In this document: positions 853 through 46,566 of the stretch, in pieces
Layout: every line of letters starts with the position of its first letter
Position numbering within the stretch: the stretch's first letter is position 1
Source: an uncultured Candidatus Saccharibacteria bacterium
GTDB taxonomy: Bacteria > Patescibacteriota > Minisyncoccia > Phycocordibacterales > PALSA-1337
Length of the DNA: 64,000 nucleotides
Assembly: GCA_964406895.1 (NCBI GenBank)
Contig: CAYOTK010000001.1
Location: 90,697-154,696, forward strand
Direction: 5' to 3'
Position numbers and translations under genes: made by a program
Notes under the pieces: generated by a model
Database searches by the model: none
Seen by the model: the letters and a program-made list of their open reading frames with translations, nothing else
What the model was told of the DNA's origin: nothing

Positions 853-1056
853 TTATTTGTCGGCGATCCAGGGGGCAGACTCGACCTTGACGCACAGAAA
901 GTCGAATTCGCAACCTCCGTGCTTTTCTCGAATGCGCTCGAAGTGAAGTCTACAGTTACTAAATTCACCCCTAAAGTACAATATCGTCTGATCGGCGTCA
1001 TTGTCCCGATTTCGTAGGTCGACGCTCGTCAACCCGAGACAGATTTTGCATTCCAT
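853..1056 (-). CDS. Small Cys-containing hypothetical protein (67 aa).
   Basis: ORF preceded by a consensus RBS (AAAGGAGGTGAGAAACCAAC-ATG) and followed by a terminator hairpin. Cys residues at positions 3, 6, 35, 48 and 55. Confidence 0.55.
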   Translation of the reverse strand: MECKICLGLTSVDLRNRDNDADQTILYFRGEFSNCRLHFERIREKHGGCEFDFLCVKVESAPWIADK

Positions 1057-1151
1057 GTTGGTTTCTCACCTCCTTTCAAGATTACTTTATTACTTTTCTA
1101 GTAAAAGTCAATATGGTTTTAATTTTATTTTTGCTGAGTATTAATTTTCAT

Positions 1152-1319
1152 CCGCACTCGCGATACGGGCAAATTGTATGAATTCGAACTCCACTCATCA
1201 TGTACGGGAATTTTCACAAAAGCCGGCTTCCACGGCTTCAGCCGGCATTTGGAAAATTCTACCGTACATTCTTCGTGGATTATTCGAATTCATACAATTT
1301 GCCCGTATCGCGAGTGCGG
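1152..1319. repeat. Long palindromic element, copy 1. Perfect 37-bp inverted-repeat arms enclose a ~95-nt core that is itself hairpin-rich.
   Basis: Arms ccgcactcgcgatacgggcaaattgtatgaattcgaa and its exact reverse complement. The core ctccactcat[c/t]atgtacgggaattttcacaaaagccggcttcca[c/a]ggcttcagccggcatttggaaaattc[t/a]accgtacattcttcgtggattat is shared with copy 2 at 15945-16133. Confidence 0.8.
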
Positions 1320-1385
1320 TCACGCAACAATCGTCACGTATCAATCAATTTGTTAAAAAGATAGAAAACTATTACAATGTTTTGA

Positions 1386-2714
1386 ATGAAGTCAAACGAA
1401 GCGTTCATAATTCAAGGCCTAGGGGGTAAGAAAACCCTGAAAGGGAAAGTGTCTATAAATGGTGCAAAAAATGCTGTGCTCAAAGCCATGTCAGCCTCGG
1501 TCTTATTCAATGGACCAATAGTGCTCGAAAATGTGCCGAACACAGAAGATGTTAAGACGATGCAGAAAATTCTCGAAAAACTGGGGGCAAAAATTTCTTG
1601 GTTGGAGAATTCTGATGCAGGTGGAAGATTGCAAATAGACGCAAGTCAAATACACACAACAGACATAGATGCGGAAATGGCTCAGAGTATGAGAGCTTCG
1701 GTTGTGCTCACGGGTCCAATATTATCGAGATTCGGAAAAGTCAGTTTCCCAGCGCCTGGAGGTTGTGTCATAGGCTCAAGGCCGATTGACTTATTCGTCA
1801 AAGCATATGAGAAGATGGGTGCCAAAACTGTTGTTGGAAAGGATTCGTATAATATAGAGACAAATAATAAAGAAAGTCTGAAAGGCGAGACCATATTTTT
1901 CGATATTCAAACTGTAGGCGGTACCGAGACATTAATGATGGCTGCGGTATTGGCGAATGGAAAAACAATACTCAAGAATTGTGCAATGGAACCAGAAATA
2001 GTCAGCGTTGCGGAATGGTTGAATAGTTGTGGCGCGAATATTGTCGGAGCCGGTACAACAACGATTGAGATAAATGGTACATCCGGGAAACTTCTTAGTG
2101 CAAAGCATATATATAAAACAATTCCTGATCGCATAGAGGCGGGCAGTTTCATAATTCTCGGTGCTGTTTGTGGAGAAGATATATATATAGAGAGGTGTGA
2201 ACCCAAACACATGGAGGCGCTCGTGAACTTGCTCAAAGATTCGGGTGTGAATATTGAGATCGGCAAGGACTATGTAAGAGTGCAAAATAATAAAGACAGC
2301 AATTCATTCAAGGCCTTTAATGTCCGTACTCATGAATATCCTGGATTTCCGACTGATCTGCAGGCTCAGATTGTTACCATGCTTACTCAAGCACAGGGAG
2401 AAAGCATAGTATTCGAAACAATATTTGAGGGAAGATTCAAATATACAGAAGACTTACAGAAAATGGGTGCAAATATTACGGTTATGAATCCGAGAGAAGT
2501 AATCATAAAAGGTAAAACTGATTTGAAATTGGTTCATGAAAATGAGGAGTTGCGAGCACATGATATAAGAGCTGGATTCGCTATAGTGGTGGCCGCGCTT
2601 TTGTCTAAAGGTCAATCGAAAATCACAAACATTCATCTTATAGATAGAGGCTATGAAAATCTCGAAAATCGTCTCACAAATATTGGAGCAGAAATAAAGC
2701 GGATATCCTCTTGA
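1386..2714 (+). CDS. murA: UDP-N-acetylglucosamine 1-carboxyvinyltransferase.
   Basis: 442 aa. N-terminus (IQGLGGKKTLKGKVSINGAKNAVL), active-site region (GGCVIGSRPIDLFV) and overall EPT-fold similarity to MurA. Confidence 0.9.
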   Translation: MKSNEAFIIQGLGGKKTLKGKVSINGAKNAVLKAMSASVLFNGPIVLENVPNTEDVKTMQKILEKLGAKISWLENSDAGGRLQIDASQIHTTDIDAEMAQSMRASVVLTGPILSRFGKVSFPAPGGCVIGSRPIDLFVKAYEKMGAKTVVGKDSYNIETNNKESLKGETIFFDIQTVGGTETLMMAAVLANGKTILKNCAMEPEIVSVAEWLNSCGANIVGAGTTTIEINGTSGKLLSAKHIYKTIPDRIEAGSFIILGAVCGEDIYIERCEPKHMEALVNLLKDSGVNIEIGKDYVRVQNNKDSNSFKAFNVRTHEYPGFPTDLQAQIVTMLTQAQGESIVFETIFEGRFKYTEDLQKMGANITVMNPREVIIKGKTDLKLVHENEELRAHDIRAGFAIVVAALLSKGQSKITNIHLIDRGYENLENRLTNIGAEIKRISS

Positions 2715-2745: not shown

Positions 2746-3125
2746 ACTTCAGAATGAATACAAAAAACAAACCAAATATTCGGCCATAGCGCTTAACCTG
2801 TTTGGTTATCGTTAGAGCCGCCAAGAAGCGGTTTTGTTTTATTCAGAAAGAAAGCAATTTGAAAACCACATACCGAGAAATAAAATGTAGGTAGTTCATG
2901 TACCATATTTGCCTTGGTCGGCCGATATGAGAATGCATGAACACAAGTAAGTAAGCGGTGTACAGATTTCCTAATGGGAAATCAAGGGCGTATGGTGGAT
3001 GCCTTGGCTAGAAAAAGCGATGAAGGACGTGGCGTGGCGACGATACGCTTCGGGGAGGTGCCGAGCAACCTTTGATCCGAAGATGTCCGAATGGGGAAAC
3101 CCGATTATGTAAAACATAATTACTG

Positions 3126-3263
3126 TGTCTCGTTAGTGTTTATTATAAGCGCAAAGCTCAAAGCTCAAAGGGCAAAACTCAAAAGTAAAGGCAAAAGCTA
3201 AAAACTTTTAACCTTAAGCTTTGAATTTGAACCTTTAACCTTTTAATAAATAGTAACGAGACA
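3126..3263 (+). other. IVS-like expansion in the 23S gene at the helix-9 position. A hairpin (stem tgtctcgttag / ctaacgagaca) encloses low-complexity gcaaagctcaaag repeats.
   Basis: About 100 extra nt relative to E. coli between GGGAAACCC and GGGAACUGAAACAUC. Flanked by an 11-bp inverted repeat. Confidence 0.6.
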
Positions 3264-3591
3264 CGGAGCGTACGTTGGGAAGTAAAACATTTCAGTACCA
3301 ACAGGAATAAAAACAAAAATGCATTCCGTTAGTAGCGGCGAGCGAAAGCGGAGGAGACTAAACTTAACGTCGCAAGACGTTGAGGGTTGCAAGGCAGAGA
3401 CGTGCTATTTATAGCAGAGAAGTTACAAAATCTTTTGTTAGCAGAATGAGCTGGAAAGCTCGACCCTAGAGGGTGATAGTCCCGTAAGTTAAAACAAAAG
3501 ATCTTCTTGGTTTCTGTTCTTAAGTACCCCAGGACACGAATAGCTTGGGGGAATCTGCCGGAACTAACCGGCAAGTCTAAATATTTTTCTA

Positions 3592-3631
<40 letters not shown>

Positions 3632-4437
3632 CAGCCCGGAAGGGCGGTGAAATAGATCTGAAACCATATGCCTACAAGGAGTCAGCGCCGTTGCACCTCA
3701 TTGCATTTGCTATAGTGAAATAATCAATAACCAAGATCCAATAATCAAACTCTTATCGAGTTTTGTTTGTTGATTATTGGTGTTTGATTATTTCATGGTA
3801 TCGAATGTAACGAGGTGTAACGGTCATGGCGTGCCTATTGAAGAATGAGCCAACGAGTTTTAGCAAGCAGCTCGGCTAAGTCCGCGAGGACGGAGTCACA
3901 GGGAAACCGAGTCTGAATAGGGCGTTTGTTGTTTGCTAAAGACCCGAAGCCAGATGAGCTTGCCACGCGCAGGGTGAAGTTCGCCGAAAGGCGGATGGAG
4001 GCCCGAACCGGTTAGCCGTGCAAAACTATCGGATGACGTGTGGTAAGGAGTGATAAGCTAATCGAATCTGGTAATAGCTGGTTCTCTCCGAAAAAACTTT
4101 TGGGTTTGCGTCAGAATTACCTTCGTGGGGTAGAGCACTGGAAGGTCTCGACAGGTCGAAAGATCACGAGACCTATCAAACTCCGAATACACGAAGTAAC
4201 TATCTGGCAGTTAGACTGTGGGGGCTAAGCTCCATTGGTCAAAAGGGAAACAGCCCGGATCTCAATTTAAGGTCCCTAAATCGACGTTCAGTGCGCTTAA
4301 GGTAGTGAAAATTCTACGACAATGAGGATGTAGGCTTAGAAGCAGCCATCATTCGAAGATAGCGTAACAGCTCACTCATCGAGAAATTTCGCGCCGCAGA
4401 TAATCGGGGCTAAAATGTCGTACCGAAACTGAGGACT

Positions 4438-4683
4438 TGTAAACTACATTGAGGAAAATTTTGTTCTTTAGGTACCAGAGTAGTTCAATGGCAGAACAGC
4501 TGATTTGGTTGCGCATTGCGACCGTTTTAAGTCAGTATGTTGAAGGTTCGATTCCTTCCTCTGGTGCCAAGTAGATTTCGGTGCTCGGGTAGCACATCTC
4601 GCCAATAAAGCGAGACGGGTTAAAACCCCGCCGGGCATCAATTTCGGGGGGAACTTCGGTTCCCCTCCTCAATGTAGTTTACA
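4438..4683 (+). other. IVS in the 23S gene at the helix-45 position (E. coli ~1170). A perfect 17-bp flanking stem (tgtaaactacattgagg / cctcaatgtagtttaca) encloses a tRNA-like module.
   Basis: 23S homology stops at 4437 and resumes at 4684. The insertion is bounded by a perfect inverted repeat, as in RNase III-processed IVSs. Confidence 0.7.
4474..4569 (+). ncRNA. tRNA-like element inside the helix-45 IVS. Features: 7-bp acceptor stem (ACCAGAG/CTCTGGT), D-arm (GTTC AATGGCA GAAC), canonical T-arm (GAAGG TTCGATT CCTTC), discriminator G and an encoded CCA. The anticodon region is expanded by ~21 nt (loop-like TTTGGTT, i.e. a UGG-like anticodon, then a 21-nt insert).
   Basis: Folded by hand from the sequence. 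The GGTTCGATTCC T-loop and a 3' CCA adjacent to a complementary acceptor strand are both present. Confidence 0.5.
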
Positions 4684-5231
4684 AGTGGTAGGAGAGTATT
4701 TGCATCGCGATGAAGGTGAAGGGGTGACCCACACTGGAGCGTTGCGAAGTAAGAATGTTGGCACAAGTAACCGCAATGCGGGTGAGATACCCGCACGCCG
4801 AAAGATCAAGGTTTCCTTGGCAATGTATATCAGCCAAGGGTTAGTCGGTCCTAAGGGGATGGCGAATGCCGCACCCGATGGATACACGGTTAATATTCCG
4901 TGACTTTCATAAAAATCGATGGAGTGACGAAGTGTAGTATATTGTGCGCATAATTGGATTTGACGTTCATGTCGTAAGGATGAGTCTTGGTAAATCCGGA
5001 CTCTGCTTTTGATAGCATATCCAAGCGAAGTGAAAATTTCGAGCAATCGGGAAATACAATAAAGCACACTTCCAAGAAAAGCTTCTAAGATTATTTTTAT
5101 GAAAACCGTACCGCAAACCGACACAGGTGGTTAGGTCGAGTAGACCTAGGCGAACGAGTGAGAGGTCTCCAAGGAACTCGGCAAAAAAGCAGCCGTAACT
5201 TCGGAATAAGGCTTGCCCTCTGGATATTGGT

Positions 5232-5295
5232 CGTTAGTTTTTGGTTTTTGGTAATCGCATTTGTGATTACTAATAACTAATTACTAATTACTAAT
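5232..5295 (+). repeat. AT-rich hairpin mini-repeat (ttagtaatta family), copy A, in the 23S helix-63 variable region.
   Basis: The sequence cgttagtttttggtttttggtaatcgcatttgtgattactaataactaattactaattactaata is about 57/65 identical to the reverse complement of 6931-7015. Confidence 0.6.
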
Positions 5296-5489
5296 ACCCA
5301 GAGGGCCGCAGCTAAAGTATCTCTGGCAACTGTTTAACAAAAACACAGCTCCCTGCGAACTCGTAAGAGGAAGTATAGGGGGTGACACTTGACCAATGCG
5401 AGAAGGTCAAATAACGGCGGTGCGATTATATCAAGCTGACTGTTATAAGCCCTCGTGAATGTCGGTCGTAACTATAACGATCCTAAGGT

Positions 5490-6263
5490 TCTTGGTTTAT
5501 TCACAAGAATGAATCAAGAAGGACTGGGATCGTTATGAGATTAATTGTTAAATATAGAAAACGTATAAGGAATTAATAATGCTGCCTATCTGCGCAGAAT
5601 AAAATGCAGATGTCCTAATAAATATCTGACTATATGCTGGGAAGTCTGAGTATCTCAGGTCACTATGGTATAATTACACCATAGTAACAATACCATGAGT
5701 GCAGACAATCAGCAGGAAAGATTAAAAATTGAAAATTGGATTCTTGGTTTCACTGATGGTGAAGGATGCTTTTCGGTTAGTTTTATAAGAAATAAAACGA
5801 CGAAAACCGGATGGCAAATTTTTCCAGAGTTTGTGATTACGAAAGGAGCCAAAAGTCTGTCTGCTCTCAAAATTATCAAAAAATATTTTGGGTGTGGAAA
5901 ATTATTCGTAAACAGACGTCATGATAATCATAGGGAAAATCTATATCGTTATTGTGTTAGATCTGTTACTGAATTGGAGAAAGTTATCGTCCCATTCTTT
6001 CTAAGAAATGAACTGAAGACATTTAAAATGAATGATTTTCGATTGTTTTCGAAAATCATACTGATTATGTCTGCTGGCGATCATTTGAATATAGTGGGAA
6101 TGAATAAAATCGCCAAATTAGTAGAAAAAATGAACAGACGAAAAAAATCTCGATTTTTGAAATCCTCAGAAACCAAACGTCAGACCCTGAGCGAAGCGCG
6201 TAGCGCTGAGTCGAAGGGAAAATAGAGTTCGCGCTGCATAGCGATATGCAGATTAACAAAACG
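5490..6263 (+). mobile_element. Intron-like insertion (presumed group I) in the 23S gene at the helix-69 hotspot (E. coli ~1917), carrying a LAGLIDADG endonuclease ORF.
   Basis: 774 nt interrupt CCUAAGGU|AGCGAAAUUCC. Preceded by U and ends in G. Junction placement is ambiguous by 1 nt. The group I core was not confidently identified by eye. Confidence 0.65.
5695..6225 (+). CDS. LAGLIDADG homing endonuclease, single-motif (homodimer type), intron-encoded.
   Basis: 176 aa with motif ILGFTDGEGCFSV near the N-terminus. Lies entirely inside the 23S insertion. Confidence 0.8.
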   Translation: MSADNQQERLKIENWILGFTDGEGCFSVSFIRNKTTKTGWQIFPEFVITKGAKSLSALKIIKKYFGCGKLFVNRRHDNHRENLYRYCVRSVTELEKVIVPFFLRNELKTFKMNDFRLFSKIILIMSAGDHLNIVGMNKIAKLVEKMNRRKKSRFLKSSETKRQTLSEARSAESKGK

Positions 6264-6894
6264 TAGCGCAATTCCTTGCGGGGTAAGTTCCCGCGCGTTG
6301 AAAAGTGTAATGACTGGAGAACTGTCTCGGAGACTTGCTCGGTGAAAATACAATACCGGTGAAGATGCCGGTTACCTGCAGTTAGACGAAAAGACCCTAG
6401 AAGCTTTACTGTAATTTGGTATTGACTATACGTTTTTGATGCGTAGCGTAGACGGTAGGATTTGAAGTGTCCCTTTCGGGGGGCATGGATCCGACGATGA
6501 AACACCGTTCTTTAAGAATGTATATTCTAACCTCGGCGGTATAAACGCCGGGAGACAGTATCTGATGGACAGTTTTAGTGGGGCGCTATCCTCCTAAACA
6601 GTAACGGAGGAGCCTATTAAGTTCAGCTAGGCGCGAATGGAAACCGTGCCGATAGTGTATGGGCACAAGCTGGATTGACTGCGAGACGTACGTGTCGAGC
6701 AGATGCGAAAGCAGAGCCAAGTGATCCGACCTTACGCATTAGATGCGGGGGAAGCTCATCGGACAAAAGCTACTCTAGGGATAACAGGCTAGTTCCGCCT
6801 AAGCGTTCATAGCGACGGCGGAGTTCGGCACCTCGATGTCGGCTCACCACATCCCGGGGGTGGAGAAGCTCCCAAGGGTTTGGCTGTTCGCCAA

Positions 6895-6929
<35 letters not shown>

Positions 6930-6930
6930 A

Positions 6931-7015
6931 TTTAGTTATTAGTGATTAGTAGTTAGTTATTGGTGATCGCAAATATGATTACCTAAAACCAAGAACTAAT
7001 AACCAATAACCAAGT
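6931..7015 (+). repeat. AT-rich hairpin mini-repeat, copy B, inverted relative to copy A, at the 5' edge of the second intron. A partial third copy lies at 7099-7145.
   Basis: Reverse complement about 57/65 identical to 5232-5295. The ttagtaattagt motif recurs at 7099-7145. Confidence 0.55.
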
Positions 7016-7137
7016 AGGGCAGTCTGAATCACTTCGAGAGATAATTTTAGTAGTCTATGAAAAAGTATAGGAAATGAACAATCATATCATGGCGGTCGTT
7101 TTAGTAATTAGTCATTAGTAATTAGTGATTAGTTCTA

Positions 7138-7560
7138 ATGCGAACAAGTCGATTTATATCGGTGGAAATCCCGAAAAGGAAGATACCGAGGGAATTATGT
7201 TCACTTAAATGGAAAAGAAGGAAGCGTATGATAATAAAATGGAAGTTGCTAATAAGCGTGTGTGTAGATGATGATTTTGAAAATTGCTTCAAGGATCTGG
7301 AAGCAGATGATGCAGATCAGGCTTTGGAATTAGCGTTCAAAGAAGTTCAGAAAGTTAACAATAGTCTTAGTGATAACGCAGACATCAACAGTGCTCTTTT
7401 ACTCGGGTTTCCTCAAGATGGAGCTTGGAGAAAGAGGCATGGTGACTTCGTTTTCATTGGACGCTGCAGAGCTCTTCAATCCAAAGAAGCAATCAAACAT
7501 TCATCGGTCAGTGAGTTCTGGAGGCCATACGGTACAGCGGACGGCACCATCGAAGACTGA
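7138..7560 (+). CDS. Intron-internal ORF of unknown type (140 aa). No LAGLIDADG, GIY-YIG, HNH or His-Cys motif seen. Possibly degenerate or novel.
   Basis: Longest ORF inside the second 23S insertion. Acidic/low-complexity middle (DDDFENCFKDLEADDADQALE). Confidence 0.3.
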   Translation: MRTSRFISVEIPKRKIPRELCSLKWKRRKRMIIKWKLLISVCVDDDFENCFKDLEADDADQALELAFKEVQKVNNSLSDNADINSALLLGFPQDGAWRKRHGDFVFIGRCRALQSKEAIKHSSVSEFWRPYGTADGTIED

Positions 7561-15030: not shown

Positions 15031-15927
15031 ATGTGGGTAGTAAATTATAGAAAAATATTTTATAGCGTATCGATAATTCTAGTCATTGCCTCTGTTTTTG
15101 CCATGATATTCTGGGGTTTGAAACCGGGTATTGATTTTACTGGTGGTACTTTGATTGAGGTTGATTATCCAAGTGGTAGGCCTGAGCAAACTCTCGTTAC
15201 TTCTGGATTATCTGCGATCGATAAAGCTGTTTCAGTAAGACCTTCTGGACAAAATGGTTATATTGTTCGCATGAAGGAAGTCAATCAAGAAGAGAAGTTA
15301 GCTGTCATGAATGTATTGAGTGAAAATGGTAAGAATTCTATGGTTGAAAAGACTTTTGATTCCATCGGTCCTGTCTTGGGTGCTGAGGCCATGAGGAAAT
15401 CTCTCGTCTCTATCATTCTAGTTATTCTCGGTATTGTTTTGTATATTACTTTTGCTTTCAGGAAAGTTTCTGAACCTGTGAAATCATGGAAATATGGTCT
15501 TGTCGCTATCATTGCTCTTGTTCATGACGTGATCATTCCTACGGGATTATTCGCTGTACTTGGTCATTATTTGGGTTACGAAGTTGACACTCTATTCGTT
15601 ACTGCACTTCTTGTTATTCTTGGTTTCTCAGTTCATGACACTATTGTTGTATTCGATCGTGTTCGCGAAAATCTTCGCCACTCGCTCGGTCACAAATCTT
15701 TCAGTTCTATTGTTGGAGAAAGTATAAGTCAAACATTCACTCGTTCCATAAATACTTCCTTGACCACTCTCATTGCTCTTATTGTTCTGTATTTTGTCGG
15801 TGGATCTATCACTGAACATTTCTCACTCGCTCTCATTGTCGGTATTGCTGCAGGTACCTATTCTTCGATTTTCATTGGTTCACCACTACTCGTTACTCTT
15901 GAAGCCTGGGCATCGAAAAGGAAATAG
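15031..15927 (+). CDS. secF: Protein translocase subunit SecF.
   Basis: GIDFTGGTLIEV motif. Adjacent to secD. Confidence 0.85.
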   Translation: MWVVNYRKIFYSVSIILVIASVFAMIFWGLKPGIDFTGGTLIEVDYPSGRPEQTLVTSGLSAIDKAVSVRPSGQNGYIVRMKEVNQEEKLAVMNVLSENGKNSMVEKTFDSIGPVLGAEAMRKSLVSIILVILGIVLYITFAFRKVSEPVKSWKYGLVAIIALVHDVIIPTGLFAVLGHYLGYEVDTLFVTALLVILGFSVHDTIVVFDRVRENLRHSLGHKSFSSIVGESISQTFTRSINTSLTTLIALIVLYFVGGSITEHFSLALIVGIAAGTYSSIFIGSPLLVTLEAWASKRK

Positions 15928-15944
15928 TAATAAGATTCAGTTTG

Positions 15945-16133
15945 CCGCACTCGTCTTCGACCAGCATTGCAGTATTTTTGTAAAGTCTCGAACTCCACTC
16001 ATTATGTACGGGAATTTTCACAAAAGCCGGCTTCCAAGGCTTCAGCCGGCATTTGGAAAATTCAACCGTACATTCTTCGTGGATTATTCGAGACTTTACA
16101 AAAATACTGCAATGCTGTCCTCGACGAGTGCGG
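15945..16133. repeat. Long palindromic element, copy 2. About 47-bp imperfect inverted-repeat arms around the same ~95-nt core as copy 1, followed by a T7 run that serves as the secF terminator.
   Basis: Termini ccgcactcg...cgagtgcgg are identical to copy 1. Arm interiors differ from copy 1 but remain self-complementary. The core is >95% identical. Confidence 0.8.
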
Positions 16134-16143
16134 GTTTTTTTAA

Positions 16144-17370
16144 TTATATTCTCTTCGTCCCATCAGCCACAATTTCTCCTTTGTGCAATTCCTTCATGGA
16201 ACCAACTATAGCGATCATGAGAGCATTATCACCTGAAATATGTCTAGAAGGGAGGTAAAGTGGCAAATTATTTTTGTCAGCAATTTGTTTCAATAATTCA
16301 CGAAGATAATTATTAGCACTAACTCCGCCACCGACGATAATAGACTGAACATGTTTTTCGGAAATTACTTTTGAGAGTTTACTCTGGATTACATCACCAA
16401 CGGCTTCTTCGAATTCCCGGGCAAGACCTTTTTTGAAATCATCACTGAGTGTTGAATTGTTGTTTTTGGTTGCATCACGTACGGCATATAATACAGCGGT
16501 TTTTAGACCAGAAAATGAAAAATCAAAATCATTACTGTTTATCATTGGTCTTGGTAGTGTAACGTTTGAATTTATATTTTCTTTTCGAGCTTGCTCTGCG
16601 AGCATAGAAATATGTGGCCCTCCAGGGTAGGGTAGCCCCATCACTCTAGCTGCTTTGTCAAAGGCTTCACCAACAGCGTCATCTCTCGTTTGCCCGATAA
16701 TTGTGTATGAAAAATTTCGATTTGTGTGCGTATTTTGATGATTTTTCACCAGAACTAGCTCTGTATGGCCTCCGCTTATAAGAAGGGCAATACTGGGCAT
16801 TTTGGCTTCATACAGGCCTTGCCACACGCCATATGGCTTATCTGACGGCAATAATGAGCCTATGATATGCCCCTCCATATGATTCACAGGAATAACTGGG
16901 CAATCCCACATTGTTCCTATGAATCTTGCAAAAACTATCCCTACCCACAAGGCCGGCTCGAGTCCAGGCCCTTCAGTCACCGCTATTCGATCAATTGGTG
17001 GTCTTTGTTCCAAGAATTTTGCATCTTTGAGAGACTGCCATAATTCAATATTTTGTCCAGAATTAATTGCACTGCATGTGCTCATGAATTCATTTAGATC
17101 CTTATGAGTGGGTTTATTTTTTTGTTGGTTTATATTCTCGAGAATGTCTTTCGAATCAATAAGTAATTTGTGCAAAAGTGGCACGATGTTTTTGGCATGT
17201 TCACGTTTCGCTAGATTGGGATAAACGCCCCCATATGCACTATGAAGCTTAGCCTGAGAATGAACCAGTGAGTTTATAACTCTGTACTCAGTTTTGCCAT
17301 TCACTTCGCGACTTTCTATGAGTGCAAGCGCTGTTTCATCACAACTTGTTTCTATACCTAAGGTGATCAT
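16144..17370 (-). CDS. tsaD: tRNA N6-adenosine threonylcarbamoyltransferase TsaD (Kae1/YgjD).
   Basis: MITLGIETSCDETALALIE start. The track ORF extends further upstream through a TTG into tRNA-Val, so it is trimmed to the ATG at 17368-17370. Confidence 0.85.
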   Translation of the reverse strand: MITLGIETSCDETALALIESREVNGKTEYRVINSLVHSQAKLHSAYGGVYPNLAKREHAKNIVPLLHKLLIDSKDILENINQQKNKPTHKDLNEFMSTCSAINSGQNIELWQSLKDAKFLEQRPPIDRIAVTEGPGLEPALWVGIVFARFIGTMWDCPVIPVNHMEGHIIGSLLPSDKPYGVWQGLYEAKMPSIALLISGGHTELVLVKNHQNTHTNRNFSYTIIGQTRDDAVGEAFDKAARVMGLPYPGGPHISMLAEQARKENINSNVTLPRPMINSNDFDFSFSGLKTAVLYAVRDATKNNNSTLSDDFKKGLAREFEEAVGDVIQSKLSKVISEKHVQSIIVGGGVSANNYLRELLKQIADKNNLPLYLPSRHISGDNALMIAIVGSMKELHKGEIVADGTKRI

Positions 17371-17472: not shown

Positions 17473-17545
17473 TGCGCGATACAGGATTCGAACCTGTGAC
17501 CCTTCCCACGTCAAGGGAATGCTCTACCAACTGAGCTAACCGCGC
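17473..17545 (-). tRNA. tRNA-Val (anticodon GAC).
   Basis: Cloverleaf: GCGCGGT acceptor, D-arm TAGCTCAGTTGGTAGAGC, anticodon stem TTCCC/GGGAA with loop TTGACGT, T-loop GGTTCGAATCC. No CCA encoded. Confidence 0.85.
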
Positions 17546-17572
17546 GTATTTATTTATAAATAAACAATATTT

Positions 17573-17691
17573 AATGCATTCTGCCAAGACAGCTAACCGC
17601 GCTTATTTAATGCATTCTACCAAAACAGCTAACCGCGCATATATTTTTAAATAACTTTCTCGATGCATTCTACCAAAACAGCTAACTGCGC
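17573..17691 (-). repeat. Three tandem copies (~27-30 nt each, ~40-50 nt period) of the 5' portion of tRNA-Val (acceptor 5' strand plus a mutated D-arm AGCTGTCTTGGCAGAA/AGCTGTTTTGGTAGAA plus GCATT), lying upstream of the gene.
   Basis: Plus-strand units aatgcattctgccaagacagctaaccgcgc, aatgcattctaccaaaacagctaaccgcgc and gatgcattctaccaaaacagctaactgcgc, compared with the genuine 5' end ggaatgctctaccaactgagctaaccgcgcg. Confidence 0.75.
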
Positions 17692-17753
17692 TTACAAATA
17701 AGATATACTAAAAAAACGACTTGCGCAACTCTTATTCATCGCTTGATTTGCTG

Positions 17754-27111: not shown

Positions 27112-27120
27112 CAAAATAAT

Positions 27121-27549
27121 ATGAATACAAAAAATATTTTAAATAAAATAGTTTCAGTAACAGGTTTGGCTCTGGGTGCATTTGCATTATCAGCTTTGGC
27201 TGGCTCATGGACTGCGCCAAATCAACCTCCTCCTAATGGTAATGCTGATGCCCCTATCAATGTAGGTACTTCTCCACAACACAAAGCTGGTACATTGGCT
27301 CTAGGCAAATCATCTGATGCCCTGAGTGGTTTGGTTATGGATATCAATGGTGCTATTGGTGCAGTCAATCTCATTACAACAGGGGATGTTACAGTTGGTG
27401 GCAATCTGGGTGTTGGCACAGCCTCACCTAGCAAGAAGCTGGAAGTAGTTGGTGGTCCTATCAAGGCAACTGGCGGTCTTATTATAGAGACTGTCTCTGC
27501 CGATCCTGCAAGTCCAGAGACGGGAAGAATGTGGCTAGTCACTCCATAA
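27121..27549 (+). CDS. Secreted Gly/Thr-rich surface protein, paralog A (142 aa).
   Basis: Signal peptide ...ALSALAGSW|TAP. Conserved block GNADAPINVG..QHKAGTLALGKSSDALSGL shared with 28852-29607. Confidence 0.6.
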   Translation: MNTKNILNKIVSVTGLALGAFALSALAGSWTAPNQPPPNGNADAPINVGTSPQHKAGTLALGKSSDALSGLVMDINGAIGAVNLITTGDVTVGGNLGVGTASPSKKLEVVGGPIKATGGLIIETVSADPASPETGRMWLVTP

Positions 27550-28233: not shown

Positions 28234-28845
28234 ATGCCTTATATCATCACGGGACTCGGTAATCCGGGAAAAGAATACGAAAACACAAGACACAATACAG
28301 GTCGTATCGTTTTGGATATTATTCGCAAAGAACATGATGGTGAGGATTTTGTTTTTGATAAGAAGTCCAATTCATCTGTTAGCAAAATTACTATTGGTAA
28401 GGGTAAGAAAGCAGAAACAGTAACACTCGTTGCTCCGGAAACATTTATGAATAATTCCGGTAAGGCTATTGCTTATTTCGTCAAGAATGAAAAGGCTGCT
28501 TCGAAACTCATTGTAATATATGATGATTTTAATTTGCCTTTGGGTAGAATAAGGATTTCATTCAATCGCAGTTCAGGTGGTCATAATGGTATTGAGTCAA
28601 TCATCAAAAGTCTCAAAACCGAGGCCTTCATCAGAATTCGTGTTGGTAATGCCAAAGAAACAAGCAAGGGTTTAGCCAAAGTGCCACATGGTGATGATAA
28701 GATTGAGAAATTTATTCTCGGTGAATACTCAGATGCTGAAATGAAAGAATTAAAAAAGATATCCAAGAACATTTGTGAAGCTGTATCTGTTATAATAAGT
28801 GAAAGTAAAGAGAAAGCAATGAGTATTTATAATGCTAACAATTGA
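28234..28845 (+). CDS. pth: Peptidyl-tRNA hydrolase.
   Basis: MPYIITGLGNPGKEYENTRHNTG N-terminal signature. The track ORF starts 27 nt upstream. Confidence 0.85.
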   Translation: MPYIITGLGNPGKEYENTRHNTGRIVLDIIRKEHDGEDFVFDKKSNSSVSKITIGKGKKAETVTLVAPETFMNNSGKAIAYFVKNEKAASKLIVIYDDFNLPLGRIRISFNRSSGGHNGIESIIKSLKTEAFIRIRVGNAKETSKGLAKVPHGDDKIEKFILGEYSDAEMKELKKISKNICEAVSVIISESKEKAMSIYNANN

Positions 28846-28851
28846 AAAAAT

Positions 28852-29607
28852 ATGAATAAAACAAAAATAGTAAATAGAATAGTTTCGCTTGTGGGATTGG
28901 CTTTCGGTGCGTTTGCATTATCAGCTTTGGCTGGCTCATGGACAGCGCCAACACAAGCACCTCCTTCGGGAAATGCTGATGCACCACTCAATGTTGGTGT
29001 TACAGCTCAACACAAAGAGGGAACATTAGCGATAGGAAAGACAAGTGATGCTCTGACAGGACTCAAGTTGGACGTAAATGGCATTATAGGTTCTACAGGA
29101 CTTTTTACGACAGGTGATCTATATGTGAATGGCGTGTCTTCTACAACACAACTTAAGGTGACGGGTGGATCTCCATCGATCGGTAAGGTTTTGACTTCAG
29201 ATGCAAGTGGTAATGCTACTTGGCAATCACCTCCATTATCAGGTTCTTCTATAGTCATGGGCCGTGTACAAGGTTCAAGCGCGGCGATTACACTGAATCC
29301 TGGATCTTGGACAGTTATGGTTACAGCATATTTTGGTGAATGTAAACTAACTCCAGTTGTTATGAAAATTGATGGTGTTGAAATAGGTGGAAGTGGCATG
29401 GGAAGAGATGCAACTGATCTTGGTGATGAACAGGGTTGTGACCAAAATGCTGTTACGGGAATAGCCACAAATTTGGACAACACTAGAATACATACAGTGA
29501 CTCTAGAAAAATTAACTGCAGATCCAGGTGATGAGTTTGCAAATTCAGATCCAAATAGAAGTCAGGTTAATAAAAGGCAATTTTGGTGGATTGCTGTTCG
29601 ACAATAG
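28852..29607 (+). CDS. Secreted Gly/Thr-rich surface protein, paralog B (251 aa).
   Basis: N-terminal ~75 aa about 70% identical to 27121-27549, with a longer C-terminal extension. Confidence 0.6.
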   Translation: MNKTKIVNRIVSLVGLAFGAFALSALAGSWTAPTQAPPSGNADAPLNVGVTAQHKEGTLAIGKTSDALTGLKLDVNGIIGSTGLFTTGDLYVNGVSSTTQLKVTGGSPSIGKVLTSDASGNATWQSPPLSGSSIVMGRVQGSSAAITLNPGSWTVMVTAYFGECKLTPVVMKIDGVEIGGSGMGRDATDLGDEQGCDQNAVTGIATNLDNTRIHTVTLEKLTADPGDEFANSDPNRSQVNKRQFWWIAVRQ

Positions 29608-31269: not shown

Positions 31270-32202
31270 CTATTCGAGGTCGGTCCTCAAGAAGGTCGGA
31301 CCTCCAAAAGGTCCGACCTCATCAGCGTTTTCGTACCAGGAAATCGCCTTATTTCTCTTGAACCAAGTCATTTGTCTTTTTGCATAATGTTTGATCTCCA
31401 TTTCCAGTTCGGCGATCATTTGTTCCAAGGTTAGTTTGTTTTGTAAATGTCTCGCCATGTATCTGTATTCTAGGCCCAGTTCTTCCATTCTCTCAAAACT
31501 CAAACCTCTATTATGTAAATCTATCGCTTCGTTCAGCATTCCTTCATTCAGGCGATTTATTAGTCGAGCATGAATTCGCTGGTGCAATATTTCTTTCGGA
31601 GGATTGATGCCTATGAATACTGGCTCAAAAATAAACTCCAGCTGAGTCGTAGTCTCATGAGTTTTTTCTCCTGACTCTATTTCTATTGCCCGAATAAGTC
31701 TACGAGCATTTTTTCTGTCGGACTCATTCATGGTCTCGGCGCGGTTGATGTTTAAACTCTTTAATAGCTGAAATAATTCATCGACATTTTTCGTTTTTAG
31801 ACTGGCCCTCAATTCTTCATCGGCTCCAACTTCAGGCAGGTTTGTATTGTTTATGAATGAATCAATATAAAATCCGGTTCCTCCACACAGAATCGGAACC
31901 TTATTGTGTTTAATAATTTCCTTTACTGCCTCAGTCGCAAGTTTTCTGAATAGCGTGACCGTGAATCTATCCTGCGGATCCGCAACATCAAGCAAATAGT
32001 GTTTTACACCTTGCATTTCTTCGTTTGTGATTTTGCCAGTCCCAATATTCAAGCCTCTATAAACTTGTCTTGAATCAGCAGATATCACTTCTCCATTTAT
32101 TTCTTTTGCGATTCTAACAGCAAGGTCGCTTTTTCCAGAAGCGGTTGGGCCGAGAATGACTATAATTCTCACATTATTTATTTTTAGTGATGAATCTTTC
32201 AT
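31270..32202 (-). CDS. miaA: tRNA dimethylallyltransferase.
   Basis: ILGPTASGKSDLAV P-loop and DSRQVYRGLNIGTGK motif. The 3' end carries an embedded palindromic repeat. Confidence 0.85.
   Translation of the reverse strand: MKDSSLKINNVRIIVILGPTASGKSDLAVRIAKEINGEVISADSRQVYRGLNIGTGKITNEEMQGVKHYLLDVADPQDRFTVTLFRKLATEAVKEIIKHNKVPILCGGTGFYIDSFINNTNLPEVGADEELRASLKTKNVDELFQLLKSLNINRAETMNESDRKNARRLIRAIEIESGEKTHETTTQLEFIFEPVFIGINPPKEILHQRIHARLINRLNEGMLNEAIDLHNRGLSFERMEELGLEYRYMARHLQNKLTLEQMIAELEMEIKHYAKRQMTWFKRNKAISWYENADEVGPFGGPTFLRTDLE
31272..31322. repeat. GC-rich palindromic (REP-like) element with GAGGTCGGACC units, embedded in the last 17 codons of miaA.
   Basis: gaggtcggtcctcaagaaggtcggacctccaaaaggtccgacctc. 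The same unit family occurs at 46527-46559. Confidence 0.6.
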
Positions 32203-32991: not shown

Positions 32992-33978
32992 ATGACAACA
33001 CCATATGTAAATGATGCAATTTTTTGGATAGAAGTCGAGAAGATCGAACCCAATCCATATCAGCCTAGACGAGAATTCGACGAAGCCAAACTCAAAGACT
33101 TGGCAGAATCCATACGTATGTACGGAGTTTTGCAACCATTAGTCGTGACGAGGAAAGAAGTTTACCACGATGGGGGCGGTATGTCGGTGGTTTACGAACT
33201 TATTTCAGGTGAGAGAAGATTGCGCGCATCTAAGATTGCAGGTTTAGCACAGGTTCCTGCGCTCATAAGATCTGGACAAGAAGATGCCCAGGTCAAATTA
33301 GAAATGGCTATTATCGAAAATCTTCAACGCGAAGATTTGAATCCTGTTGATAGGGCAAGATCATTCGAAAGATTGACCAAAGAATTTGGCTTGAAACAAG
33401 CTCAGATTGCAGAGAAAATGGGTAAAAGTCGTGAGTATGTATCCAATTCCATGCGTATATTGTCTCTACCTGACGAAATGATAAATGCTCTAGAAGAGGG
33501 AAGAATATCTGAAGGTCACACAAGACCACTTCTTATGCTCATTGATAAGCCAGAAGAACAGATGGTTTTATTCAAGGAAATTATTACTAAGAAACTGACA
33601 GTTAGAGAGGCAGAATCTCTGGGACGTAGAGCTGCCACTGAAAAAATCCGTAATAAGGGTAAGTATCTAGATCCAGCAATAATAGAGCTTGAGAAAAACT
33701 TTACAGAGACTTTGGGAACGCGCGTCCGTATTGAAAAAAACAAAGACGGAGGCACGGTTACGATCGATTTCTTTAGTCCTGATGATTTGGTGGCTTTGTT
33801 AAACAAGTTAAATAAAGAGCAAAGTGAAAAGGTCCAACACAATACGAATACAGTAAATAATGAAAATACAAGTTCAAATGATGTTTCTAATTCAGCACCT
33901 ATAGATGATCGACCCGAAGAAGAAGTTGAGAAAGAAAATACTGAAGATTTGTATTCCTTGAAAAATTTTTCAATCTAG
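32992..33978 (+). CDS. parB: Chromosome partitioning protein ParB/Spo0J.
   Basis: ParB box GERRLRASKIAGLAQVPAL, an HTH, and an acidic C-terminus. Confidence 0.85.
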   Translation: MTTPYVNDAIFWIEVEKIEPNPYQPRREFDEAKLKDLAESIRMYGVLQPLVVTRKEVYHDGGGMSVVYELISGERRLRASKIAGLAQVPALIRSGQEDAQVKLEMAIIENLQREDLNPVDRARSFERLTKEFGLKQAQIAEKMGKSREYVSNSMRILSLPDEMINALEEGRISEGHTRPLLMLIDKPEEQMVLFKEIITKKLTVREAESLGRRAATEKIRNKGKYLDPAIIELEKNFTETLGTRVRIEKNKDGGTVTIDFFSPDDLVALLNKLNKEQSEKVQHNTNTVNNENTSSNDVSNSAPIDDRPEEEVEKENTEDLYSLKNFSI

Positions 33979-38089: not shown

Positions 38090-38230
38090 GCCAAGGTAAG
38101 CTGTCTTGGCAGAAATCATTTAAAATTATCATATACCGCCAAGGTAAGCTGTCTTGGCAGAAATCATTTAAAATTATCATATACTGCCAAGGTAGCTGTC
38201 TTGGTAGAAATCATTTAAAATTGTAATAGA
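38090..38230 (+). repeat. Three tandem ~47-nt units upstream of tRNA-Phe. Each unit is the tRNA 5' fragment (GCCAAGGTA + mutated D-arm AGCTGTCTTGGCAGAA + ATCATT) plus an AT-rich TAAAATTATCATATA tail. Each unit reads as a -35-like TTGGCA/TTGGTA, a 17-nt spacer and a -10-like TCATAT/TAATAG.
   Basis: Units at 38090-38135, 38136-38183 and 38184-38230 are near-identical. The last ends 2 nt before the tRNA. Confidence 0.8.
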
Positions 38231-38232
38231 CC

Positions 38233-38308: not shown

Positions 38309-38445
38309 AAACGATTCAATATAAATACTGCGATTTACTGCGGGATGGGGTAACATTCGATCCTGGTCCTTGGCACCAAATTACTCAAAATCATATCGCG
38401 CAAATTGCGGGATGGGGTAACATTCGATCCTGGTCCTTGGCACCA
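38309..38445 (+). repeat. Two tandem ~67-nt units downstream of tRNA-Phe, each ending in a copy of the tRNA 3' portion (GGGGTAACA-TTCGATCCTGGTCCTTGGCACCA).
   Basis: 38347-38378 and 38414-38445 reproduce the T-loop 3' half plus acceptor 3' strand plus ACCA exactly. Each is preceded by a small hairpin (cgcaaattgcg-like). The array abuts the stop of the 1351-aa gene. Confidence 0.8.
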
Positions 38446-38451
38446 AATTAA

Positions 38452-46526: not shown

Positions 46527-46559
46527 AATCAAGGTCGGACCTCTAAGAGGTCCGACCTT
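46527..46559. repeat. GGTCGGACC-family palindrome AAGGTCGGACCTCT-aa-GAGGTCCGACCTT between dnaE and thrS.
   Basis: Perfect 14-bp inverted repeat. Same unit as the element in the miaA 3' end. Confidence 0.6.
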
Positions 46560-46566
46560 GAAAAGT

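What the first reader, a model, noticed from the sequence alone, without database searches (positions are those of the whole stretch)
1152..1319. Long palindromic repeat element (two copies) with conserved core and covarying arms
Copy 1 lies in the murA leader (1152-1319). Copy 2 lies between secF and tsaD (15945-16133). They share identical 9-bp termini (ccgcactcg...cgagtgcgg) and a >95% identical ~95-nt core. That core contains nested hairpins: GCCGGC...GCCGGC, gaattttc/gaaaattc and atgtacgg/ccgtacat. The long inverted-repeat arms between termini and core differ completely between copies: 37 bp perfect in copy 1, ~47 bp with one small bubble in copy 2. Each copy nevertheless keeps its own self-complementarity. 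That is the signature of either a MITE-like foldback element or a selected RNA/DNA cruciform structure. Copy 2 is followed by a T7 run and is positioned to act as the secF terminator.
Basis: seen in the sequence. Interest (0 to 1): 0.65.

Follow-up and report, generated by a model that had tools for sequence, protein, structure and literature searches.

The report
Flip-flop palindromic intergenic repeat family
Two ~170-190-base perfect hairpin sequences in this Paceibacteria genome belong to a small, lineage-specific family of palindromic intergenic elements. Their inner core is more conserved than the neighbouring genes, their interior flips between strains and species, and their arms change in mirrored patches, so this is a strand-symmetric DNA element and not a murA leader RNA.

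Summary
Copies at 1152-1319 and 15945-16133 fold into near-perfect hairpins (z -18 and -20), share a 104-nt core (101/104 identical) and 9-bp termini, and match no Rfam family.

Related contigs add four points.
1. A third locus exists in the same species. Orthologous copies sit at both window sites in other species of the genus, one species lacks the secF-tsaD copy, and more distant relatives show nothing similar.
2. The interior is inverted relative to the flanking genes at both loci in other species, and in some strains of the window species.
3. The lower core (79 nt, bulges included) differs at 2-4 positions between any two copies, while flanking coding DNA is 81-85% identical. The apical hairpin is species-specific and shared by paralogs.
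4. Of 50 aligned pairs, 11 changed on both sides and none on one side. There are no G-U pairs. One replaced arm patch copies a 12-mer lying 81 nt away.

Copy 1 lies upstream of the conserved murA promoter-like site. The T7 run after copy 2 is not conserved.

Best reading: a vertically inherited, strand-symmetric hairpin/cruciform DNA repeat. Templated arm-to-arm copying keeps the arms complementary, and an unidentified factor reads the core. A structured RNA is not excluded.

The parts
1152..1319 (.). Copy 1, whole element (168 nt). It sits between the divergent small ORF (853-1056, minus strand) and murA.
   Evidence: An identical copy is present in the independent contig L002.
1152..1188 (.). 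Copy 1 left arm (37 nt). Outer CCGCACTCG, variable middle CGATACGGGCAAA, inner TTGTATGAATTCGAA.
   Evidence: 100% complementary to 1283-1319. One search shows which parts are conserved in the ortholog.
1283..1319 (.). Copy 1 right arm (37 nt).
1184..1287 (+). Copy 1 core (104 nt, 'flip' orientation). Stems P1-P6 with bulges C, TTA, TA and A, and a 5x5 internal loop TCATC/TCTTC.
   Evidence: The covariance model scores 113.9 bits on + versus 39.6 on -.
1222..1246 (+). Copy 1 apical hairpin: GCCGGCT, 11-nt loop, AGCCGGC. This is the species-specific, fast-evolving part of the core.
   Evidence: 7 of 14 stem positions and 3 of 11 loop positions vary. Paralogs within a genome share the same type.
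15945..16133 (.). Copy 2, whole element (189 nt), between convergent secF and tsaD.
   Evidence: An identical copy is present in the independent contig L018.
15945..15955 (.). Copy 2 outer stem, left side (11 bp). It pairs with 16123-16133.
15956..15961 (.). Copy 2 asymmetric mid-arm bubble, left side (TTCGAC). It lies opposite 16118-16122. This asymmetry travels with the core when the element flips.
15962..15992 (.). Copy 2 inner left arm (31 nt, perfect).
15988..16091 (+). Copy 2 core (104 nt, 'flip' orientation).
   Evidence: The covariance model scores 120.2 bits on + versus 43.6 on -.
16087..16117 (.). Copy 2 inner right arm (31 nt).
16118..16133 (.). Copy 2 right side of the bubble (16118-16122) plus the outer stem (16123-16133).
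16135..16141 (+). T7 run after copy 2. It is terminator-like only in this allele.
   Evidence: It is absent from the orthologs L029 and L027.
1350..1378 (+). Promoter-like site for murA (TTGTTA-17-TACAAT), downstream of copy 1.
   Evidence: It is conserved in species X.
1060..1071 (+). GGTTTCTCACCT, complementary to the ribosome-binding region of the minus-strand small ORF. It is the likely template for the replaced mid-arm patch of the copy-1 ortholog in species X.

Best explanation
The two copies belong to a small family of 170-205-bp quasi-palindromic intergenic elements, with at least three loci per genome. The family is restricted to one genus-level Paceibacteria lineage and is inherited vertically at orthologous sites.

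**It behaves as a strand-symmetric, DNA-level hairpin/cruciform-forming element. It does not behave as a strand-specific RNA.**

Shown:
- The long arms stay complementary because changes appear on both arms at once, sometimes as multi-nucleotide patches copied from nearby or paralogous DNA.
- Everything inside the outermost 11-17 bp of the stem has inverted repeatedly (flip/flop).
- The 79-nt lower core, including its bulges and internal loop, is under purifying selection.
- The apical hairpin evolves in concert among paralogs.

Inferred:
- Arm-to-arm copying and inversion come from replication template switching or recombination between the inverted arms.
- The arms exist to drive hairpin or cruciform extrusion, which presents the bulged lower core.
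- The lower core is a sequence-specific recognition module for an unidentified trans-acting protein.
- When transcribed, as copy 2 must be from the convergent secF and tsaD, the element also forms an RNA hairpin. That hairpin can end or protect transcripts, but this is a side effect.
For: **Real and significant**
-.

**Family and distribution**
- A third locus is seen as an ORF read through a copy. Its core peptide is identical to that of copy 1, and its flanks match neither window site.
- A copy-1 ortholog is spanned by five independent assemblies, L033-L037.
- A copy-2 ortholog is spanned by L029, L030 and L032, and is partly present in L027, L022, L011 and L013.
- The junctions with flanking DNA are conserved.

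**Flipping**
- The covariance model scores 104-126 bits in one orientation against 21-50 in the other.
- The better strand is opposite to that of the window, relative to the flanking genes, in L033-L037, L029-L032 and L011/L013. It is the same as in the window in L002, L018 and L027.
- The asymmetric mid-arm bubble flips together with the core.

**Strand symmetry**
- There are no G-U pairs among the 69-80 pairs in each of four elements.
- Of 50 aligned pairs, 11 changed on both sides and none on one side. 99.5% of cells are paired, and 0 of 500 shuffles reach this.

**Templated patch**
- The 13-nt mid-arm of the species-X copy is replaced on both arms.
- Its 12-mer has a single match in the 64-kb window, and that match lies 81 nt from copy 1.

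**Selection on the lower core**
- The lower core shows 2-4 differences in 79 nt between any pair of copies.
- By comparison, murA coding DNA is 84.7% identical, flanking intergenic DNA 62-80%, and the syntenic region about 81%. The binomial probability is about 2-3e-4.

**Concerted evolution**
- In the apical 25 nt, the two paralogs in the window differ by 1 position, while copies from different species differ by 5-8.

**Position relative to transcription**
- Copy 1 lies upstream of both flanking promoter-like sites.

**Published mechanism**
- Template switching between inverted repeats homogenises the arms and reversibly inverts the spacer (PMC8604942).
- The same process helps preserve inverted repeats in bacteria (PMC5941160).
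Against: - No trans-acting reader of the core has been identified.
- No recombinase, transposase or HUH nuclease is encoded in the 64-kb window.
- Arm-to-arm correction alone does not lower the substitution rate, so the conservation of the core requires a function that I cannot name.
- Template-switch spacer inversion is documented for spacers of a few bases (PMC8604942), not for a structured interior of about 170 nt.
- Expression was not tested. Transcription from an internal promoter that flips with the element would also be orientation-independent.
- Only four full-length sequences from three species were available.
- One congeneric species (L026) lacks the secF-tsaD copy, so any function is dispensable at that site.
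Confidence: 0.55

Rival explanations
1. It is a structured non-coding RNA gene, or a double-stranded RNA hairpin, with its own promoter inside the flipping unit. The conserved lower core with its bulges would be a protein-binding RNA motif, and the long stem a double-stranded RNA scaffold.
For: - The RNA fold is very stable.
- Unpaired bases of the lower core are conserved: 15 of 19 are invariant.
- Stems show compensatory changes.
- Copy 2 must be transcribed from both convergent genes.
Against: - No Rfam match, even at E-value 10.
- No G-U pairs and no one-sided changes, which is unusual for an RNA under selection.
- The antisense strand folds at least as well.
- No conserved promoter-like or terminator-like signal accompanies the element.
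- The T7 run is not conserved.
- The apical loop is the most variable part.
Confidence: 0.2
2. It is an active non-autonomous transposable element (a MITE or foldback element), mobilised in trans by a transposase encoded elsewhere in the genome.
For: - It is small, non-coding, palindromic and intergenic.
- At least three dispersed loci exist. The third locus shares whole arms with the secF-tsaD allele found in other species.
- One congeneric species has an empty site.
- A more distant relative carries a different palindromic repeat family.
Against: - No target-site duplication at either copy.
- The termini are not conserved in allele B.
- The copies sit at orthologous sites with conserved junctions in species whose shared DNA is only about 78-85% identical.
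- The most divergent relative with the same gene order (L022, 72% DNA identity) carries the element, while the closer L026 (80%) lacks it. Loss is therefore more likely than insertion.
- No transposase is encoded in the window.
- An exact 22-mer from the core is absent from 185,579 species-representative genomes apart from one chance hit.
Confidence: 0.1
3. Its selected role is as a bidirectional transcription terminator or mRNA 3'-end protector between genes.
For: - Copy 2 is the only hairpin between the convergent secF and tsaD, and it is followed by G plus T7 on the secF strand.
- In L026 the two stop codons are only 3 nt apart.
Against: - Copy 1 lies between divergent genes, upstream of both promoter-like sites.
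- The T run is missing in L029 and L027.
- A terminator role does not explain sequence conservation of 79 nt including bulges.
Confidence: 0.08
4. It is a programmed invertible switch (an inverton), flipped by a site-specific invertase to control neighbouring genes.
For: - Both orientations exist at both loci, including within one species at 98-99% flank identity.
- Inverted repeats bound the flipped segment.
Against: - The flipped interior is itself almost palindromic, so flipping moves only about 25 asymmetric bases.
- The promoter scan finds no site inside either copy; the only overlap is a 9-of-12 match that straddles the right end of copy 2.
- No invertase is encoded in the window.
- Each spanning contig shows a single orientation.
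Confidence: 0.05
5. The palindromes or their orientations are assembly artefacts.
For: Most short-read contigs break inside the element.
Against: - Full-length copies were recovered identically in independent assemblies made with different assemblers: 2 for each window copy, 5 for the copy-1 ortholog and 3 for the copy-2 ortholog.
- MEGAHIT's k-mer of 141 exceeds the arm lengths of 39-55 nt.
Confidence: 0.02

Closest known systems
Bacterial MITEs with a conserved core and hairpin potential, for example the Neisseria Correia repeat enclosed elements (PMC2649163; review PMC10969869)
   Same: Both are 100-200 bp, non-coding, intergenic and dispersed. Both have inverted ends around a core and fold into a long hairpin that, in RNA form, can act on neighbouring genes.
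   Different: - Correia-type MITEs have conserved terminal inverted repeats, a TA target-site duplication, and tens to hundreds of copies.
- Here the conserved part is central and the mid-arms are hypervariable.
- No duplication is seen, the copy number is low, and copies are orthologous across species.
REP/REPIN elements mobilised by RAYT transposases (PMC3116915, PMC3337134)
   Same: Both are hairpin-forming intergenic repeats that persist vertically within a lineage. Both show paired changes that keep the hairpin.
   Different: - A REPIN is two conserved ~25-bp REP sequences around a variable spacer, the opposite layout to this element.
- REPINs occur in large numbers.
- No RAYT is encoded in the window, and the rest of the genome could not be searched.
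Quasipalindromes shaped by replication template switching (PMC8604942, PMC5941160, PMC7202029)
   Same: Arm homogenisation, multi-nucleotide mirrored changes, reversible spacer inversion and unusual persistence of inverted repeats are all observed here.
   Different: - Documented cases involve arms of 5-20 bp and spacers of a few bases.
- Here the arms are 37-55 bp and the inverted interior is about 170 nt.
- The centre of this element is also under purifying selection.
Folded-DNA recombination sites such as integron attC hairpins (PMC5737091); the general principle is from my own knowledge of the field
   Same: In both, a long imperfect palindrome has a stem sequence that is free to vary while bulged, extrahelical bases are kept, and it could be read as a hairpin.
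   Different: - attC sites have conserved R and L boxes at the base and a variable top.
- Here the base varies and the inner core is conserved.
- No integrase or cassette context is present.
Flip/flop terminal palindromes of parvoviruses (own knowledge)
   Same: Both are asymmetric palindromes found in two inverted configurations.
   Different: The viral case arises at the ends of linear genomes by hairpin transfer. This element is internal to a bacterial chromosome.

Membership tests
MITE | Small non-coding element with no transposase of its own | tested here: met
   The element is 168-204 nt. Only spurious ORFs cross it, and they lack a ribosome-binding site.
MITE | Terminal inverted repeats conserved among copies and matching an autonomous insertion sequence | tested here: inconclusive
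   - The two window copies share 9-bp ends.
- Allele B and the orthologs have other ends.
- No insertion sequence carrying these ends is present in the window.
- The rest of the genome was not available.
MITE | Target-site duplication flanking each copy | tested here: not met
   The flanks are TTTTCAT|..|TCACGCA and CAGTTTG|..|GTTTTTT. No direct repeat longer than 3-4 nt is present.
MITE | Insertion polymorphism showing recent mobility | tested here: inconclusive
   One empty orthologous site exists (L026). However, a more divergent relative (L022) carries the element, which favours loss.
REPIN/REP | Two conserved REP sequences in inverted orientation around a variable spacer | tested here: not met
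   The conserved part is the centre, and the mid-arms are the most variable part.
REPIN/REP | An associated single-copy RAYT gene | not testable with these tools
   None is found among the 40 window ORFs scanned against Pfam, which cover 4.7-62 kb of the window.
Riboswitch / cis-regulatory leader RNA | Match to a curated RNA family | tested here: not met
   Nothing reaches the gathering threshold. Only chance-level hits appear at E-values from 1.4 to 10.
Riboswitch / cis-regulatory leader RNA | Fixed sense orientation inside the 5' UTR of the regulated gene | tested here: not met
   - The core is inverted relative to murA in species X.
- The promoter-like site lies downstream of the element.
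Intrinsic terminator | GC-rich hairpin followed directly by a U tract, conserved at the site | tested here: not met
   Only the window allele of copy 2 has the T7 run. Copy 1 and the orthologs L029 and L027 lack it.
Inverton (phase-variable invertible promoter) | Inverted repeats flanking a segment found in both orientations | tested here: met
   Orientation calls from the covariance model.
Inverton (phase-variable invertible promoter) | A promoter inside the segment and an invertase nearby | tested here: not met
   The promoter scan finds no site inside either copy; only a 9-of-12 match straddles the right end of copy 2. No recombinase is encoded in the window.
Integron attC site | R''/L'' and L'/R' boxes (GTTRRRY consensus) at the hairpin base, within a cassette array with an integrase | tested here: not met
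   The ends are CCGCACTCG / CGAGTGCGG. The flanking genes are housekeeping genes.
Template-switch quasipalindrome | Mirrored multi-nucleotide changes on both arms, with spacer inversion between related genomes | tested here: met
   - 11 pairs changed on both sides and none on one side.
- A 13-nt patch is replaced on both arms and matches a neighbouring 12-mer.
- Inversions occur at two loci.

The most novel reading that the evidence does not exclude
The element is a new kind of folded-nucleic-acid site.
- A conserved bulged hairpin module would be presented on a long stem of arbitrary sequence.
- A dedicated enzyme, not yet identified, would read it: a hairpin-specific nickase or recombinase, or a double-stranded-RNA processing factor.
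- That enzyme's action would cause the flip-flop and the templated rewriting of the arms.

In the most extreme version, the hypervariable 13-19-bp duplex in the arms would be a programmable segment released from a hairpin RNA.
Probability: 0.12. Interest if true: 0.8.

Novelty: new variant of a known kind. Interest (0 to 1): 0.5.

Why it matters
Paceibacteria, part of the Candidate Phyla Radiation, have tiny genomes with little room for non-functional DNA. Even so, this lineage keeps 170-205-bp near-perfect palindromes at the same sites across species. That is unexpected, because long palindromes are usually unstable.

Three properties make the family useful to study:
- **Separate evolutionary regimes in one element.** The core is more conserved than the neighbouring essential genes, the apical hairpin evolves in concert among copies, and the arms are rewritten in mirrored patches. 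Selection and templated mutation can therefore be told apart within 200 bases.
- **A caution for RNA discovery.** Perfect 'covariation' can arise at the DNA level without any RNA function.
- **A possible new system.** If a protein that reads the core is found, it would define a new hairpin-based DNA or RNA system in an uncultured phylum.

There is also a practical consequence: the element breaks most short-read assemblies at these loci.

Tried and rejected
**Searches that found nothing useful**
- **Exact 22-mer scans.** Scans of the core in viral contigs, 185,579 representative genomes and JGI metagenome contigs gave only chance hits in Bacteroides and unrelated contigs.
- **Arm and core patterns in viral contigs.** I tested a 'guide/protospacer' idea for the variable arms. 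There were no matches. The arms also have no second match inside the window.
- **Phage and plasmid records.** BLAST in distant mode found no match.
- **Rfam.** Nothing at the gathering threshold or at E-values up to 10.
- **Six-frame peptide search.** I searched for ORFs called through other copies. This gave only one extra locus (P0241), and its DNA could not be retrieved.
- **Covariance model.** A search over 205 kb of window and related loci found no further or degenerate copies.
- **Failed look-ups.** The look-ups of TsaD and of the neighbouring 148-aa ORF returned nothing useful.

**Ideas considered and dropped**
- **An early inference I withdrew.** I first thought the L011 left arm and the L027 right arm showed a perfect 54-bp palindrome. 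They are the same arm seen in flipped elements. In the full-length L029 copy the arms are 89% complementary.
- **Non-canonical parS.** parB is in the window and no canonical parS is present, but nothing links the element to ParB.
- **Small peptide gene.** All three + frames are open across the core, but there is no ribosome-binding site and the changes are compensatory for pairing.
- **Replication origin or terminus.** There is no GC-skew switch in the window.

Full report
**1.

Copy 1 (1152-1319, 168 nt) and copy 2 (15945-16133, 189 nt) are present as described.

- The 9-mer CCGCACTCG occurs only at their four ends in 64 kb. Chance expectation is 0.15, and 0 of 100 shuffles reach 4.
- The shared core is 104 nt (1184-1287 and 15988-16091) and 101/104 identical. 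The three differences lie in an internal loop, the apical loop and a bulge.
- Copy 1 has 37-nt perfect arms. Copy 2 has a 31-nt perfect inner arm, a 6/5-nt bubble and an 11-bp outer stem.
- Each copy folds into one long hairpin. As RNA the energies are -111.6 and -116.2 kcal/mol, with z -17.8 and -20.1. As DNA copy 1 gives -74 kcal/mol, z -18.4.
- The complementary strand folds at least as well.
- Independent assemblies reproduce both copies exactly: L002 for copy 1 and L018 for copy 2.
- No Rfam family matches at the curated thresholds or up to E = 10.

**2. Context**

The organism is a Patescibacteria/Paceibacteria member, according to the names that sources give to homologs.

*Copy 1*
- It lies between a minus-strand 67-aa ORF (853-1056, with a strong ribosome-binding site) followed by priA, and plus-strand murA (1386-2714).
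- The promoter-like sites for both genes lie outside the element. For murA the site is TTGTTA-17-TACAAT at 1350-1378, ending 8 nt before the ATG, and it is conserved in the ortholog.
- Copy 1 is therefore upstream of the murA promoter and not in a leader.

*Copy 2*
- It lies between the stop codons of convergent secF (15031-15927) and tsaD (16144-17370, minus strand).
- G plus T7 follows it on the secF strand.

**3. How widely it occurs**

Searches that found no relatives:
- Exact core 22-mers are absent from viral contigs, from 185,579 species-representative genomes and from the JGI metagenome collection, apart from chance hits.
- Phage and plasmid records have no match.

Searches that did find relatives:
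- A search of 5.8 billion proteins with the six-frame translation of the core found one ORF read through another copy (P0241, on an NCBI contig of 107,679 bp). Its core peptide is identical to that of copy 1. Its flanks match neither window locus, so it marks a third locus in this species.
- Using neighbouring proteins to fetch contigs, I recovered orthologous copies at both window sites.

*secF-tsaD site*

| Contigs | Relation to window | State of the element |
|---|---|---|
| L029, L030, L032 | about 81% DNA identity | full length, 204 nt |
| L027 (species X) | about 78% | partial |
| L022 | about 72% | left arm only, then the contig ends |
| L026 | about 80% | absent; the two stop codons are 3 nt apart |
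| L023-L025 | SecF 77% identical (protein) | different gene order, element absent |

*murA site*
- Five independent assemblies of species X (L033-L037) carry a full 172-nt ortholog with conserved junctions.

*Interpretation of the empty site*
- The most divergent relative with the same gene order (L022) has the element, while the closer L026 does not.
- The empty site is therefore more simply explained as a loss than as the ancestral state. I see no evidence of recent transposition.

**4. The element flips**

I built a covariance model from the core. It scores 104-126 bits in one orientation and 21-50 in the other.

Orientation relative to the flanking genes:
- **murA site:** window and L002 are 'flip'. 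All five species-X assemblies are 'flop'.
- **secF-tsaD site:** window and L018 are 'flip', and so is L027. L029-L032 are 'flop'. L011 and L013 are also 'flop', even though their flanks are 98-99% identical to the window.

Further details:
- L027 and L029 share 97.7% identity over 130 nt of the element in opposite orientation, while their tsaD genes are 84.5% identical.
- The asymmetric bubble in the arms travels with the core. The TTCGRC version always stays on the side of the core's 5' half, and the GAGGR version on the other side.
- Everything inside the outermost 11-17 bp therefore inverts.
- The spanning contigs come from different assemblers, and MEGAHIT's k-mer of 141 exceeds the arm length. 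The orientations are therefore unlikely to be artefacts.
- At least three independent inversions are needed to explain the pattern.

**5. How the parts evolve**

I put four full-length and three partial copies in the same orientation.

| Part of the core | Variable positions |
|---|---|
| Lower stems | 2 of 60 (one compensated pair) |
| Lower unpaired bases | 4 of 19 |
| Apical stem | 7 of 14 (three compensated pairs, one T.C mismatch) |
| Apical loop | 3 of 11 |

*Lower core*
- Any two copies, paralogous or orthologous, differ at only 2-4 of the 79 lower-core positions.
- By comparison, murA coding DNA is 84.7% identical and flanking intergenic DNA 62-80%.
- The binomial probability of so few changes is about 2-3e-4.

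*Apical 25 nt*
- The two paralogs in the window differ by 1 position, while copies from different species differ by 5-8.
- This indicates concerted evolution among the copies within a genome.

*Arms*
- The outer 8-9 bp and the inner ~15-20 bp are conserved between orthologs.
- The 13-19 bp in between is replaced, always on both arms.
- In species X, the replaced patch contains GGTTTCTCACCT. Its only match in the 64-kb window lies 81 nt upstream of copy 1, at 1060-1071, complementary to the ribosome-binding region of the minus-strand small ORF.
- The middle of the copy-1 arm (CGATACGGGCAAATT) resembles the outer arm of allele B at the other locus (CGAATACGGGTAATTT).

*Two alleles within the window species*
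- Allele A (window, L012, L014, L016, L018, L019) and allele B (L011, L013, L017) coexist at the secF-tsaD site.
- Divergence between them begins at window position 15944.
- Allele B arms are 95-98% identical to those of other species.

**6. The pairing is strand-symmetric**

- In four full-length elements there are no G-U pairs among 69-80 pairs each.
- On an ungapped alignment of core plus inner arms (50 pairs, 200 cells), 99.5% of cells pair.
- Eleven pairs changed on both sides and none on one side.
- No shuffle reaches these values, and sliding the partners destroys the signal.
- An RNA under selection normally shows G-U intermediates and one-sided changes. Their complete absence, together with equal folding of both strands, indicates that changes are mirrored at the DNA level.

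**7. Mechanism**

Established from the literature:
- Replication template switching between inverted repeats homogenises the arms, produces clustered multi-nucleotide changes and reversibly inverts the spacer (PMC8604942).
- The same process has been proposed to preserve inverted repeats in bacterial intergenic regions (PMC5941160).

All three signatures are present here, on a larger scale.

My inferences:
- The 'covarying arms' are kept complementary by arm-to-arm templated copying, occasionally using nearby or paralogous templates. They are not maintained by selection on an RNA stem.
- The flip-flop arises by the same process or by recombination between the arms.
- This process cannot explain the slow evolution of the lower core, bulges included. 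That requires purifying selection and hence a sequence-specific reader.
- A protein that recognises the extruded DNA hairpin or cruciform fits best. It could instead recognise the hairpin on either RNA strand. On this view the long arms serve to drive folding.

The 40 window ORFs scanned encode housekeeping functions, a LAGLIDADG endonuclease inside the 23S gene, ParB, topoisomerase I and similar proteins. None is a transposase or recombinase.

**8. Rival explanations**

- **Own-promoter structured RNA.** This remains possible. It lacks support from promoter and terminator scans and from the substitution pattern.
- **Active MITE.** This fails on target-site duplication, conserved termini and recent mobility.
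- **Terminator.** This role is specific to the window allele of copy 2.
- **Programmed inverton.** The interior is nearly palindromic and has no promoter inside it, so this is unlikely.
- **Artefact.** Replicate assemblies exclude this.

**9. Comparison with known elements, and novelty**

- The element is closest to bacterial palindromic repeats (MITEs such as Correia elements, and REPINs) and to template-switch quasipalindromes.
- Its layout is inverted relative to those repeats: conserved centre, hypervariable mirrored mid-arms.
- It has low copy number, is orthologous across species, and flips.
- A more distant relative (L023) has its own, unrelated ~110-nt palindromic repeat in two orientations. 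Small palindromic repeat families therefore seem to be a feature of this group.
- I found no paper describing such elements in Patescibacteria.
- I rate it a new variant of a known kind, of moderate interest. The most interesting open point is what reads the core.

Noticed in passing
window 2972-7054, especially 4435-4686: The 23S rRNA gene is about 1.1 kb longer than the Rfam model. Inside it, at 4474-4566, is a strong tRNA match (58.5 bits) with a 25-nt insertion in the anticodon loop. Perfect 21-bp inverted repeats (4435-4455 / 4666-4686) flank it. ARAGORN does not call it.
   Followed up: partly
window 5695-6225: A LAGLIDADG_1 homing-endonuclease ORF lies inside the 23S rRNA gene, which suggests an intron. 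Other ORFs in or near the rRNA insertions (4669-5124 on the minus strand, 7138-7560 on the plus strand) have no Pfam match.
   Followed up: partly
window 17523-17702, 38090-38232 and 38339-38450: Tandem repeats resembling tRNA fragments lie next to tRNA-Val and tRNA-Phe. There are 3-4 copies of 34-48 nt, and two identical 45-nt copies of a tRNA 3'-half-like sequence.
   Followed up: no
window 31276-31319 and 46529-46561: A second, short palindromic repeat (AAGGTCGGACCT..AGGTCCGACCT) occurs at two intergenic sites 15 kb apart.
   Followed up: no
window 32992-33978 and the whole window: A parB gene is present, but no canonical parS (TGTTNCACGTGAAACA, up to 2 mismatches) occurs anywhere in the 64 kb.
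   Followed up: partly
window 1350-1386: The -10-like TACAAT ends 8 nt before the murA ATG, and there is no Shine-Dalgarno sequence. murA may be translated from a leaderless mRNA.
   Followed up: no
L023 4279-4385 and 6953-7061: A more distant relative (SecF 77% identical) carries two copies of an unrelated ~110-nt palindromic repeat. Its 34-35-nt arms are conserved and its asymmetric centre is present in opposite orientations.
   Followed up: partly
window 15944 onward; L011, L013, L017 versus L012, L014, L016, L018, L019: Strains of the window species with 98-99% identical flanks carry two very different alleles of the secF-tsaD element. One allele is almost identical to that of other species. 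This could be an old polymorphism or recombination between species.
   Followed up: partly
window 27114-27360 and 28845-29091: The 5' parts of two nearby genes with no Pfam match (27121-27549 and 28852-29607) are 74% identical over 247 nt.
   Followed up: no
L003, L011, L013, L027 contig ends: Several independent short-read contigs end at the same position in the core, or within two bases of it (GGGAATTTTC). Logan contigs end exactly at the arm/core junction. This could reflect the palindrome itself or mixed orientations in the population.
   Followed up: no
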